Made by a program: the position numbers and the translations under genes
Source of the DNA: a virus
Taxonomy: Duplodnaviria > Heunggongvirae > Uroviricota > Caudoviricetes
IMG/VR virus record: IMGVR_UViG_638341086_000016
Reading direction: 5' to 3' (one strand)
DNA: 44,207 nt
The notes under the pieces: model-generated
Database searches by the model: none
The model's input: only the letters and a program-made list of their open reading frames with translations
Told to the model about the DNA's origin: nothing
Part shown: positions 1-27,877 of the stretch, piece by piece
Layout of the letters: every line of letters starts with the position of its first letter
Numbering within the stretch: the first letter of the stretch is position 1

Positions 1-84
1 ATCAATCACGCTCATCATCTGCGTGGACTTAAGATTGTCCTTTGCCTCAACCGGCGTGTGCGCCTTGCCGCCACCTTTGCCCAT
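1..84 (-). CDS. J: tail tip / host specificity protein J, first 28 codons only (gene continues beyond left edge)
   Basis: Reverse complement of 1..84 reads MGKGGGKAHTPVEAKDNLKSTQMMSVID, matching the conserved lambda gpJ N-terminus; absent from ORF track because no stop lies in the window. Confidence 0.75.
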   Translation of the reverse strand, partial: MGKGGGKAHTPVEAKDNLKSTQMMSVID

Positions 85-112
85 TGTCTCACCCTTTACT
101 GTGATAACTGTT

Positions 113-150
113 ACGCACAAAAACAACAGGCATCCCGGAGGATGCCTGTA
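113..150 (-). terminator. intrinsic-terminator-like hairpin between I and J
   Basis: Perfect 9-bp inverted repeat CAGGCATCC / GGATGCCTG with 4-nt loop at about 127..148, followed on the - strand by a T-rich tract (TTGTTTTTGTG). Confidence 0.5.
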
Positions 151-279
151 TCATCACTGAATAAAACTTATGAATATCTTCACATTTTCACAAACTGACT
201 GTGGTGCTAATAATTTCTCTGCGTTAATGTTTTTGTCGTGACATAAGAATAATTCTCTATAGTTAATCTTCGTAACTCT

Positions 280-312
280 CCCGCAGCTCCGCAACACTGC
301 GGGATTTTTTTA
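280..312 (+). terminator. intrinsic-terminator-like hairpin, plus-strand orientation
   Basis: 7-bp stem CCCGCAG / CTGCGGG with 10-nt loop followed by ATTTTTTTATTCTTTTT on the + strand. Confidence 0.45.
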
Positions 313-318
313 TTCTTT

Positions 319-999
319 TTACCCCTGCCGCCCGATAACCACGACCTTTCCGCCACCGCCTTCATCACGGGTGCTGATGTCCTGGGAGATTCGCCGGGAG
401 CCAACCAGCATTTCACCGTAAGGCACCGGCATCGGGTTCCCCTGGGCAATCATATTGTCCAGTGACGAAAAATACGTGTTCTGTTTACCGTTATCCGTTG
501 CGCGGTAATCCGGTGTTTTTGCCTTCGGTGCCAGCATCTGGGCCACACCACCCAGAATCATACTGGCACCCAGTGAAAACAGCATCGTGGTGGCAGAAAA
601 ACCACCGGCACTCAGGGCTGTACCCCATAACGCCATCGAGCCTCCGGCAGTGAAGAAAGAGCCCACGATGGCTGCCGCCCCCAGCACAATCTGCAGTCCA
701 CCCTTTCCGGCTCCGGCCAGTCGCGGCACAATATGGATAACCGTTCCCTCACCCAGTTGTTCGTGAAGGCGGGCATACACCACCTCCGGTGCCGTGTCCT
801 CACCGCGAATACGTATCTGGTACCACCCTTCGTTCATCTGACGGCGGAATCCCGGCACCTGTAACGACAGCGCCCGGATGGCTTCCGCTGCCGTGTTCAC
901 GTACAGGCTGAGGCGGCGGCCAAATCGTTGTAAATCCCCGTGAAGGCAGATGCGTGCCAGTGGCGGTGACGCCAGACAGAATGCGTTCGTCGTTGCCAT
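319..999 (-). CDS. I: tail tip assembly protein I
   Basis: 226 aa; N-terminus ...ARICLHGDLQRFGRR... and Gly/Ala-rich C-terminal half ending VVVIGRQG as in lambda gpI; sits after K. Confidence 0.9.
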   Translation of the reverse strand: MATTNAFCLASPPLARICLHGDLQRFGRRLSLYVNTAAEAIRALSLQVPGFRRQMNEGWYQIRIRGEDTAPEVVYARLHEQLGEGTVIHIVPRLAGAGKGGLQIVLGAAAIVGSFFTAGGSMALWGTALSAGGFSATTMLFSLGASMILGGVAQMLAPKAKTPDYRATDNGKQNTYFSSLDNMIAQGNPMPVPYGEMLVGSRRISQDISTRDEGGGGKVVVIGRQG

Positions 1000-22926: not shown

Positions 22927-23141
22927 GGAAATAAAGGGATAACGATGATAGTTTGAGAAAAACAGAAATAACACTTTTGTGGCAAAGCATGGTGCCGGGT
23001 GCCTCCCGGTGAATTCAGCCGGTGTCACTGAACCCGCGTCGGCTTGCCTATAACATAATAAATGCTACCCACACCAGTCGCCCCTCCGCACAGGGGGATT
23101 CACCATGCAGAAGTGTTTTTAATAAACAGCAAACAAAAAAA

Positions 23142-23986: not shown

Positions 23987-24062
23987 TGGTGGCCCTTGCT
24001 GGATTTGAACCAGCGACCTGGCGATTATGAGTCGCTCGCTCTCACCACTGAGCTAAAGGGCC
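23987..24062 (-). tRNA. tRNA with anticodon CAU (Ile2/Met type, ileZ-like as in Stx-phage tRNA clusters)
   Basis: Reverse complement GGCCCTTTAGCTCAGTGGTGAGAGCGAGCGACTCATAATCGCCAGGTCGCTGGTTCAAATCCAGCAAGGGCCACCA folds as a cloverleaf (acceptor GGCCCTT/AAGGGCC, D-stem GCTC/GAGC, T-arm GCTGG-TTCAAAT-CCAGC), encoded CCA. Confidence 0.8.
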
Positions 24063-27602: not shown

Positions 27603-27763
27603 AATGACCTCGCGTTTCGATAATTTTTACCTCGCCACCGTCAGGTGCTAATCATCGTGGTGGCGAACTGTGCGGGGTTAGCACTACCGGTCGAAACATC
27701 CGGCGAGCCTTTCGGCTCCCCCACACAGCCCGCCATAAATCGCGAATGTGACTGTGCTTAGCG

Positions 27764-27788
27764 CATAAAAAAACCGCCAGCGCGGTTA
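27764..27788 (-). terminator. terminator-like hairpin AACCGC-CAGC-GCGGTT plus U-run downstream of ninE
   Basis: Same 6-bp stem as at 5937 and 13650; A7 on + strand. Confidence 0.5.
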
Positions 27789-27877
27789 TGCACCGTTTCG
27801 ATATCCGGGGTGCTAATCCCGACGCCAGATTTTGCTGGCGCGTGAGGAATATAGCCCCGAATAAATCATCGCGTCAA

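What the first reader, a model, noticed from the sequence alone, without database searches (positions are those of the whole stretch)
85..318. 234-bp insertion between tail genes I and J carrying two opposed terminator hairpins
In lambda J follows I directly. Here I ends at 319 and J starts at 84. The spacer holds a + strand terminator-like hairpin (280..312) and a - strand hairpin with a perfect 9-bp stem and U-tail (about 127..148). No convincing protein ORF is present (best is a 23-codon + strand ORF without RBS). This looks like a small inserted transcription unit, possibly an sRNA on the + strand, or a transcriptional insulator ahead of J.
Basis: seen in the sequence. Interest (0 to 1): 0.5.

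Follow-up and report, generated by a model that had tools for sequence, protein, structure and literature searches.

The report
PasB-family prophage small RNA gene

Summary
I ends at 319 and J starts at 84. The 234-bp spacer carries a + strand terminator (279-311) and a - strand hairpin (126-149).

The right part of the spacer (about 166-311, + strand, antisense to the tail genes) is a complete small transcription unit:
- a sigma-70 promoter, TTCACA-16-AATAAT;
- a non-coding RNA of about 77-91 nt;
- an intrinsic terminator that ends 8 nt before the stop codon of I.

It is homologous, at the same position and in the same orientation, to two experimentally found sRNAs. One is PasB of EPEC E2348/69 (83 nt, Northern-validated, Hfq-dependent, 37 RIL-seq partners). 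The other is EcOnc22/23/24 of EHEC Sakai (about 85 nt, destabilised in delta-hfq). A covariance model built without any allele of the window's type hits 221-311 at 73.8 bits (E 1.8e-12).

The allele is divergent: 73% identical to PasB overall and 63% upstream of the terminator.

The - strand hairpin is not part of this gene. It belongs to a separate, exchangeable J-proximal module. Lambda's own 60-bp I-J spacer has an analogous hairpin.

Neither candidate ORF shows coding conservation: the 23-codon ORF's ATG is unique to this window, and the indels among relatives do not keep a reading frame.

Verdict: a divergent member of a known sRNA family, of low to moderate interest.

The parts
1..84 (-). 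5' end of the tail tip / host specificity gene J (start codon at 84-82). This is context, not part of the element.
   Evidence: A homologous RefSeq locus is annotated gpJ.
116..149 (-). J-proximal hairpin: a 10-bp stem at 149..126 followed by the run TGTTTTTG at 125..118. It looks like a terminator on the tail-gene strand. It is a separate module from the sRNA gene.
   Evidence: -20.1 kcal/mol, z = -4.3. It is conserved with 98% of cells paired. One pair switches between U-A and C-G in 4 of 10 distinct sequences, but 57 of 500 shuffles reach that score, so the covariation support is weak. Lambda's 60-bp spacer has an analogous hairpin.
169..184 (.). Conserved inverted half-sites TATGA-N6-TCACA (TCTGA-N6-TCACA in relatives), resembling a CRP site. 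This is a candidate regulator site upstream of the promoter.
   Evidence: It is the only match with at most 1 mismatch to TGTGA-N6-TCACA in the 44-kb window. The half-sites are invariant in 33 distinct sequences apart from the window's own C170A, while N6 varies. Binding was not tested.
187..214 (+). Sigma-70-type promoter: -35 TTCACA (187-192), a 16-nt spacer, and -10 AATAAT (209-214). The -10 is TATAAT in most relatives.
   Evidence: 10 of 12 matches. The same aligned position carries TTCACA-16-TATAAT in relatives.
221..311 (+). PasB / EcOnc22-24 family small RNA. The 5' end is predicted at about 221 from the -10 hexamer. The published, coverage-based PasB 5' end aligns to about 236. The 3' end lies in the U-run at 305-311.
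   Evidence: Covariance model R1, built without window-type alleles, scores 73.8 bits, E 1.8e-12, full length. Alignment to E2348/69 PasB is.
245..253 (+). A-R-N repeat run (AAG AAU AAU), a candidate binding site for the distal face of Hfq.
   Evidence: An A-R-N run is present at this aligned position in all allele families, although its sequence differs (AACAAAAACAAC, AAAAAUAAC, AAUAAAAACAAAAC). Inference only.
262..271 (+). GUUAAUCUUC, the most conserved single-stranded stretch of the RNA body and the candidate seed or Hfq-contact region.
   Evidence: Mean column conservation is 0.89, against 0.61-0.78 for the flanking stretches. Zhu et al. 2026 place the PasB seed just upstream of the terminator.
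279..311 (+). Intrinsic terminator and Hfq-binding 3' module: an 8-bp stem (279-286 with 297-304), a 10-nt loop, and U7.
   Evidence: The stem is invariant across 13 family members while the loop varies in sequence and length.
319..999 (-). Tail assembly gene I. Its stop codon lies 8 nt beyond the sRNA's U-run. This is context.
   Evidence: A homologous RefSeq locus is annotated 'tail assembly protein'.

Best explanation
The I-J spacer carries a 'moron'-type sRNA gene: extra DNA with its own promoter and terminator, set into the late tail operon on the opposite strand.

**Proposed mechanism.**
1. Host RNA polymerase starts at the TTCACA-16-AATAAT promoter, at about position 221.
2. It stops at the CCCGCAG/CTGCGGG-U7 terminator, just before it would run antisense into gene I.
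3. The resulting RNA of about 77-91 nt is an allele of PasB (EPEC) / EcOnc22-24 (EHEC).
4. By analogy with those RNAs, it is made from the resident prophage and is bound and stabilised by Hfq. Candidate contacts are the terminator with its U-tail and the A-R-N run.
5. It then base-pairs in trans with host and accessory-genome mRNAs, probably through the conserved single-stranded stretch just upstream of the terminator.

**The - strand hairpin.** The hairpin at 126-149 is a different, exchangeable module of the junction. Lambda has an analogue. It probably acts on the tail-strand transcript, either as a terminator that Q-modified polymerase reads through or as an RNA-end stabiliser.

**Shown versus inferred.**
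- Shown here: the anatomy, homology, position and orientation, and the conservation pattern.
- Shown in the literature, for homologues only: the transcript, its size, its Hfq dependence and its RIL-seq partners.
- Inferred: expression of this particular allele, its exact 5' end, its targets, and control by CRP.
For: **Homology in place.**
- The window spacer aligns end to end with the E2348/69 PP6 I-J spacer.
- PasB is mapped there at 1466343..1466261, opposite to the flanking tail genes.
- The reverse complement of the PasB Northern probe, AGCTCCGCGATCACTGCGGGATT, corresponds to window 285-306.

**Match to the EHEC sRNAs.**
- The EcOnc22/23/24 Northern probe matches 23 nt (GTTAATCTTCATCGTTCTCTCCC) of the Sakai Sp15 I-J spacer sequence read.
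- The stretch around the sRNA is identical in the Sp15, Sp14 and Sp11 spacers.
- This is the same aligned stretch as window 262-282.

**Published properties of the homologues.**
- Sizes are about 85 nt and 83 nt.
- Both lose stability without Hfq. PasB has log2FC -6.8 and -2.4 in delta-hfq.
- PasB has 37 RIL-seq interactions.

**Independent sequence test.** Model R1, built from 13 family members with no window-type allele, hits 221-311 at 73.8 bits, E 1.8e-12. The next best hit in the 44-kb window scores 12.3 bits.

**Conservation pattern.**
- The promoter and terminator sit at conserved aligned positions.
- Regulatory and structural blocks score 0.90-1.0. Parts of the RNA body score 0.61-0.78, and indels are not multiples of three.

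**Distribution.** The module is absent from lambda-type I-J junctions. The spacer matches 1241 of 5426 complete E. coli genomes.
Against: - There are no expression data for this window or for the window-type allele.
- Its -10 hexamer is AATAAT rather than the TATAAT of most relatives.
- It carries a unique substitution (C170A) in the most conserved upstream block.
- The body is only 63% identical to PasB, so its targets may differ.
- The fold is not unusually stable apart from the terminator (z = -1.9).
- The terminator stem shows no covariation because it is invariant.
- The published PasB 5' end lies about 15 nt downstream of the start predicted from the -10 hexamer. Either processing occurs or the published end is approximate.
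- No target or phenotype is known for any member of the family.
Confidence: 0.85

Rival explanations
1. The spacer is only a transcriptional insulator. Two opposed terminators keep tail-operon and antisense transcription apart, and no stable functional RNA is made.
For: Both hairpins look like terminators. The + strand terminator abuts the stop codon of I, and the - strand hairpin precedes the J leader.
Against: - A conserved promoter lies 65 nt upstream of the + strand terminator.
- Homologous loci give abundant, Hfq-bound RNAs of 83-85 nt.
- The two hairpins belong to modules that recombine independently.
Confidence: 0.04
2. This allele is a decaying or silent copy of the sRNA gene. The gene family is real, but this copy is not expressed or not functional.
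For: - The -10 is AATAAT instead of TATAAT.
- A unique C170A change hits the invariant upstream half-site.
- The exact allele is rare: only 12 of 561 records are at least 95% identical.
Against: - AATAAT keeps the critical A at position 2 and T at position 6, and the promoter still matches 10 of 12 consensus positions.
- The terminator, U7 tail, A-R-N run and GUUAAUCUUC block are all intact.
- Alleles of the same type occur in 558 of 5426 genomes, which speaks for maintenance.
Confidence: 0.1
3. The RNA works mainly in cis. It is fully complementary to the I-J intergenic part of the late tail transcript. Pairing with that transcript would trigger RNase III processing, or tune the I:J ratio, or silence leaky tail-gene expression in the lysogen. 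This is not exclusive of a trans role.
For: - It is encoded antisense to the late operon by construction.
- The gene keeps this position in every one of the loci examined.
Against: - RIL-seq finds PasB with many trans partners.
- The complementary stretch does not cover the J ribosome-binding site, which lies about 130 nt from the RNA's 5' end.
- No data exist on late-mRNA processing at this junction.
Confidence: 0.12
4. The spacer encodes a small protein: either the 23-codon + strand ORF at 170-241 or the 47-codon - strand ORF at 154-297.
For: Both ORFs exist.
Against: - The ATG at 170 is unique to this window. It reads CTG in the other 32 distinct sequences, and it lies upstream of the promoter.
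- The - strand ORF starts at a GTG inside the terminator loop.
- Relatives differ by indels of one to several bases, most not multiples of three, so no reading frame is kept.
Confidence: 0.01

Closest known systems
PasB (E2348CN_0006), the Hfq-dependent sRNA of EPEC E2348/69 prophage PP6 (Pearl Mizrahi et al. 2021, PMC8550237; Zhu, Shabalina & Storz 2026, bioRxiv 10.64898/2026.05.13.724894)
   Same: - Same locus (I-J spacer) and same orientation (antisense to the tail genes).
- Same promoter position.
- Same terminator stem, CCCGCAG/CTGCGGG, followed by U7.
- A conserved A-R-N run and a conserved (U)UAAUCUUC block.
   Different: - 73% identical overall and 63% upstream of the terminator.
- The longest shared exact word is 17 nt.
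- -10 is AATAAT against TATAAT.
- The predicted 5' hairpin (GUUUUUUUG/…CAAAAAC) is not kept.
- A megablast search with PasB as query returned only hits at least 90% identical. The published survey used word size 28 and more than 75% coverage. That survey would therefore probably not have counted this allele type; this is an inference.
EcOnc22 / EcOnc23 / EcOnc24 of EHEC O157:H7 Sakai prophages Sp15, Sp14 and Sp11 (Tree et al. 2014, PMC4104026, Table S2)
   Same: - Same I-J spacer and same strand.
- About 85 nt on Northern and destabilised in delta-hfq.
- The probe covers the block homologous to window 262-282.
   Different: - 77% identical overall and 69% upstream of the terminator.
- None of the papers I read links EcOnc22-24 to PasB.
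Phage 'morons' and other prophage sRNAs (AgvB, AsxR, PasA/C/D, STnc100) downstream of PR'
   Same: - A self-contained promoter-plus-terminator unit added to a lambdoid genome.
- Expressed from the prophage and Hfq-associated.
   Different: - It sits in the tail operon, not at the PR' moron site.
- There is no Rfam match to AgvB, AsxR or any other family here.
- It is longer than the anti-sRNAs of 51-60 nt.

Membership tests
PasB / EcOnc22-24 sRNA family | Located in the spacer between tail genes I and J of a lambdoid prophage, on the strand opposite to the tail genes | tested here: met
   Window. E2348/69 PP6. Sakai Sp15, Sp14 and Sp11.
PasB / EcOnc22-24 sRNA family | Sequence and structure homology to experimentally mapped members | tested here: met
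   Model R1, built from 13 members that include PasB and EcOnc22 but no window-type allele, scores 73.8 bits, E 1.8e-12, over model positions 1-94. The runner-up scores 12.3 bits.
PasB / EcOnc22-24 sRNA family | Own sigma-70 promoter at the conserved aligned position | tested here: met
   TTCACA-16-AATAAT at 187-214. It is aligned with TTCACA-16-TATAAT of relatives. This is a consensus match only; activity was not measured.
PasB / EcOnc22-24 sRNA family | Intrinsic terminator CCCGCAG-loop-CTGCGGG followed by a U-run of at least 7 | tested here: met
PasB / EcOnc22-24 sRNA family | Accumulates as a discrete RNA of about 83-85 nt | not testable with these tools
   Shown only for homologues.
PasB / EcOnc22-24 sRNA family | Hfq binding and Hfq-dependent stability | not testable with these tools
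   Shown for homologues. The window keeps the U7 tail, a U-rich stretch upstream of the terminator, and an A-R-N run.
Phage moron (Juhala et al. 2000 sense) | Extra DNA between two genes that are adjacent in related phages, with its own promoter and terminator | tested here: met
   Lambda-type junctions have a 60-bp spacer without this module. Promoter and terminator.
Anti-sRNAs AgvB / AsxR (Rfam RF02702 / RF02703) | Match to the Rfam models, and location 3' of the PR' moron site | tested here: not met
   No Rfam hit in 60-360 even at E up to 10. The same search recovers AgvB in a Sakai control locus.
CRP-dependent promoter | CRP site TGTGA-N6-TCACA at a productive distance from the start (centred near -41.5 or -61.5) | tested here: inconclusive
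   The site at 169-184 has 1 mismatch and is the only such match in the window. Its half-sites are invariant among relatives. Its centre lies at -44.5 from the predicted start at 221, or -59.5 from the homology-based start at 236. Neither is canonical. Binding and regulation were not tested.
Type I toxin-antitoxin or small-protein gene | A conserved short ORF with conserved start codon and reading frame | tested here: not met
   The ATG at 170 is unique to the window. Indels among relatives do not preserve a frame.

The most novel reading that the evidence does not exclude
The I-J junction sRNA is not one gene with minor variants. It is a set of at least five allelic body 'cassettes': the PasB type, the window type, the Sakai EcOnc22 type, the V02 type and the V25/V29 type. 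These are swapped by recombination between an invariant upstream block, which resembles a CRP site, and an invariant terminator. Different prophages would then plug different target specificities into the same nutrient-responsive expression slot. The RNA could in addition act in cis on the tail transcript to which it is antisense.
Probability: 0.15. Interest if true: 0.5.

Novelty: new member of a known kind. Interest (0 to 1): 0.25.

Why it matters
**What this settles.** An unannotated 234-bp gap in a prophage is explained. It also shows that an sRNA family known under two unconnected names (PasB, EcOnc22-24) is one family with several divergent alleles at a fixed position in the tail operon.

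**How wide the family is.** It is absent from Rfam and from RefSeq annotation. It is probably under-counted by the published survey. In the 5426 complete E. coli genomes:
- PasB-type alleles are in 956 genomes;
- window-type alleles are in 558 genomes;
- the whole spacer matches 1241 genomes.

**What remains open.** No function is known for any member. The practical value is therefore annotation plus a few testable leads: the candidate CRP-like site, the conserved A-R-N run, and the GUUAAUCUUC block. It does not open a new kind of biology.

Tried and rejected
- **Rfam.** Searches at gathering and at permissive thresholds found no family in the spacer. The only hits were chance-level (E 0.23-2.3) to unrelated Bacteroides, Dictyostelium and Actinobacillus RNAs.
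- **AgvB/AsxR anti-sRNAs.** This was my first guess from memory. It was rejected: they lie at the PR' moron site and do not match.
- **Consensus structure of the RNA body.** RNAalifold keeps only the terminator. The predicted 5' hairpins differ between allele families.
- **Covariation in the terminator.** None is possible, because the stem is invariant.
- **Covariation in the - strand hairpin.** One compensatory pair was found, but 57 of 500 shuffles do as well. I do not claim covariation support.
- **The hit class covering only spacer positions 1-150.** I suspected it might be another body allele. It is a prophage deletion in O157:H7 PA20.
- **The sodC-containing spacers.** I suspected a 3'UTR-derived sRNA. 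However, sodC has its own hairpin terminator upstream of the pasB remnant, so this is not supported.
- **EcOnc22 coordinates.** The published coordinates first seemed to fall on the wrong part of the spacer. They refer to NC_002695.1, which is offset by about 140 nt from NC_002695.2, judged from AgvB. The probe sequence settled the identity.
- **PasB target list.** I did not extract it from the large RIL-seq table.

Full report
**1. The observation**

The window begins inside a lambdoid tail gene cluster read on the - strand.
- ORF 319..999 (-) is the I-type tail assembly protein.
- The ATG at 84 (-) opens MGKGGGKAHTPVEAKDNLKSTQ, the J N-terminus.
- A 98.7%-identical RefSeq locus is annotated 'tail assembly protein' and 'phage attachment tail tip protein J', with nothing annotated in between.

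- The + strand terminator has stem 279-286 paired with 297-304, followed by T7 at 305-311.
- The - strand hairpin has a 10-bp stem at 149..126 followed by TGTTTTTG. It folds at -20.1 kcal/mol, z = -4.3.
This places a start near 221 and gives a unit of about 91 nt.

**2. What it is**

Rfam has nothing here. The spacer is nevertheless widespread. It matches 149 phage records, mostly Stx-converting phages, and 1241 of 5426 complete E. coli genomes. No feature of its own is annotated in the spacer in any listed hit.

The literature search led to PasB, one of five prophage sRNAs found by Hfq RIL-seq in EPEC E2348/69.
- It was validated by Northern blot and is Hfq-dependent (PMC8550237).
- Table S6 maps it to NC_011601.1 1466343..1466261 (minus strand), 83 nt, in prophage PP6, convergent with the upstream gene.
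- That interval lies in the 240-bp spacer between 'tail assembly protein' and gpJ of PP6.
- The window spacer aligns with the PP6 spacer end to end.
- The reverse complement of the PasB Northern probe corresponds to window 285-306.

A second, older record turned up in EHEC. EcOnc22, 23 and 24 of Sakai prophages Sp15, Sp14 and Sp11 are Hfq-CRAC peaks with a Northern band of about 85 nt that is destabilised in delta-hfq (PMC4104026, Table S2).
- All three fall in I-J spacers on the strand opposite the tail genes.
- The published coordinates refer to NC_002695.1, which is shifted by about 140 nt relative to NC_002695.2, judged from AgvB.
- The published probe settles the identity. Its reverse complement matches GTTAATCTTCATCGTTCTCTCCC in the Sp15 spacer, immediately upstream of the terminator. 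The three Sakai copies are identical around the sRNA.
- None of the papers I read connects EcOnc22-24 with PasB.

**3. Membership test**

I built a covariance model from 13 distinct family sequences: PasB, PasB-2, EcOnc22 and three other allele types. All window-type alleles were excluded.
- The model hits window 221-311 (+) over its full length at 73.8 bits, E 1.8e-12. The next hit in the 44 kb scores 12.3 bits.
- The same model finds the gene in every tested locus that has the close I protein (96-100% identical).
- It finds nothing in lambda-type, Citrobacter or distant I loci.

**4. Anatomy from comparison**

I fetched 117 loci encoding I relatives and measured their I-J spacers.

- **Lambda-type junctions.** These are identical to J02459. 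They have a 60-bp spacer with no sRNA gene but with a stable hairpin of their own (-21 kcal/mol, z = -2.8). The simple terminator scan does not score this hairpin.
- **Junctions with the close I protein.** All other measured junctions carry the sRNA module (window 161-318).
- **The J-proximal part is exchangeable.** It is either the 76-bp module with the window's hairpin or a module of about 180 bp with a different hairpin.

The - strand hairpin is therefore not half of one insert. It belongs to the J leader region and has an analogue in lambda. It is well conserved, with 98% of cells paired. One pair switches between U-A and C-G, but shuffles reach the same score in 57 of 500 trials, so I do not claim covariation support.

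Conservation within the sRNA module, over 33 distinct sequences:

| Block (window coordinates) | Mean conservation |
|---|---|
| Upstream block 166-187 | 0.96 |
| -35 hexamer | 0.90 |
| -10 hexamer | 0.92 |
| A-R-N run 245-253 (kept in every family, though with different letters) | 0.86 |
| GTTAATCTTC 262-271 | 0.89 |
| Terminator stem | 0.95-1.0 |
| U-run | 0.99 |
| Body stretch 236-244 | 0.67 |
| Body stretch 254-261 | 0.78 |
| Body stretch 272-278 | 0.61 |
| Terminator loop | 0.77 |

Indels run from one to several bases and most are not multiples of three. This is the pattern of a non-coding RNA gene, not of a protein gene.

The ATG of the 23-codon ORF is a C-to-A change found only in this window, and it lies upstream of the promoter.

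**5. How divergent is this allele?**
- Against PasB: 73% overall and 63% upstream of the terminator. The longest shared word is 17 nt.
- Against EcOnc22: 77% overall and 69% upstream of the terminator.
- A megablast search with PasB finds 956 genomes, all at 90% identity or more.
- A megablast search with the window RNA finds 558 genomes, mostly at 80-90% identity. Only 12 records reach 95% or more.
- The 2026 survey of Pas sRNAs used word size 28 and more than 75% coverage within Escherichia, and reports only 'a few nucleotide differences' among PasB variants. I infer, without having checked its tables, that it did not count window-type or Sakai-type alleles.

**6. Mechanism**

*Shown here:* a promoter, a short non-coding body and an intrinsic terminator that ends 8 nt before the stop codon of I, all antisense to the tail operon.

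*Shown for homologues:* a discrete RNA of 83-85 nt, strong Hfq dependence, and 37 RIL-seq interactions with core and accessory transcripts. PasB is more abundant in overnight static LB than in DMEM.

*Inferred:*
- This allele is expressed from the prophage.
- It binds Hfq through the terminator with its U7 tail and the A-R-N run.
- It pairs with targets through the conserved single-stranded block upstream of the terminator, as the 2026 preprint proposes for PasB.

*A lead of my own:*
- The invariant upstream block reads TCTGA-N6-TCACATTT (TATGA in the window).
- It is the only match with at most 1 mismatch to the CRP core TGTGA-N6-TCACA in the whole window.
- This would fit lower PasB levels in DMEM if that medium keeps cAMP low. 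The glucose content of DMEM is my own knowledge, not from these papers.
- However, the spacing to the predicted start (-44.5, or -59.5 from the homology-based start) is not canonical, and nothing was tested.

**7. Rivals**
- A pure insulator is unlikely, given the conserved promoter and the published transcripts.
- A silent or decaying copy cannot be excluded, because of the weaker -10 and the unique C170A. All other functional blocks are intact, though.
- A cis-antisense role on the tail transcript is possible alongside a trans role and is untested.
- A small protein is excluded for practical purposes.

**8. Verdict**

The element is a divergent member of a known, experimentally supported sRNA family whose function is still unknown.

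Modest additions from this work:
- EcOnc22-24 and PasB are the same family.
- The family comes in several divergent body alleles between an invariant upstream block and an invariant terminator.
- There is a candidate regulator site upstream of the promoter.
- The - strand hairpin is a separate junction module.

Interest is low to moderate.

Noticed in passing
L033:2186-3020 (also L028, L052, L070, L116): In I-J spacers of 839-842 bp, a Cu/Zn superoxide dismutase gene (sodC; Pfam Sod_Cu, E 3.9e-32) is inserted in the same orientation as the sRNA gene. It has its own hairpin terminator. It replaces everything upstream of the sRNA's +1, so that copy of the sRNA has lost its promoter. The I-J junction is thus a recurrent moron insertion site.
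   Followed up: partly
L006:2180-2525 and the other loci with spacers of 336-344 bp: An alternative J-proximal module of about 180 bp replaces the window's 76-bp module. It carries a different GC-rich hairpin (AAACCCCGGTATC-AGCA-GATACCGGGGTTT) with T-runs on both sides.
   Followed up: no
window 170: C170A is unique among 33 distinct relatives.
   Followed up: yes
window 22951-23137 (-), 23990-24062 (-), 27656-27854 (-), 36238-36296 (+), 42020-42136 (-): Rfam gathering-level hits elsewhere in the window: STnc100 (said to be related to PasD in the 2026 preprint), a tRNA, a C4 antisense RNA / isrK / c4-a1b1 cluster (P1/P7-type immunity RNAs), the lambda cIII thermoregulator, and an ALIL pseudoknot (frameshift element of an insertion sequence).
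   Followed up: no
L085-L098, L100 and others; L082: Phage lambda DNA, 100% identical to J02459 at the junction, sits in genome assemblies of unrelated organisms: Neobacillus, Shewanella, Chromatium, Paenibacillus, Leeuwenhoekiella and others. Several of these contigs are about 48.4-48.5 kb. A 3.4-kb 'Streptomyces flavalbus' contig carries an E. coli-type prophage I-J junction. These are most likely contamination.
   Followed up: partly
L119 (E. coli O157:H7 PA20, NZ_CP017669.1 3114621-3115970): A prophage deletion joins the I-J spacer, shortly downstream of the sRNA gene, to a truncated L gene. This removes I, K and part of L. It explains the class of hits that cover only the first 150 bp of the spacer.
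   Followed up: yes
L125 (Sakai, NC_002695.2 1941920-1941981): Coordinates in Tree et al. 2014 Table S2 refer to NC_002695.1. AgvB lies about 140 nt further along in NC_002695.2. Anyone mapping EcOnc sRNAs onto the current record needs to apply this shift.
   Followed up: partly
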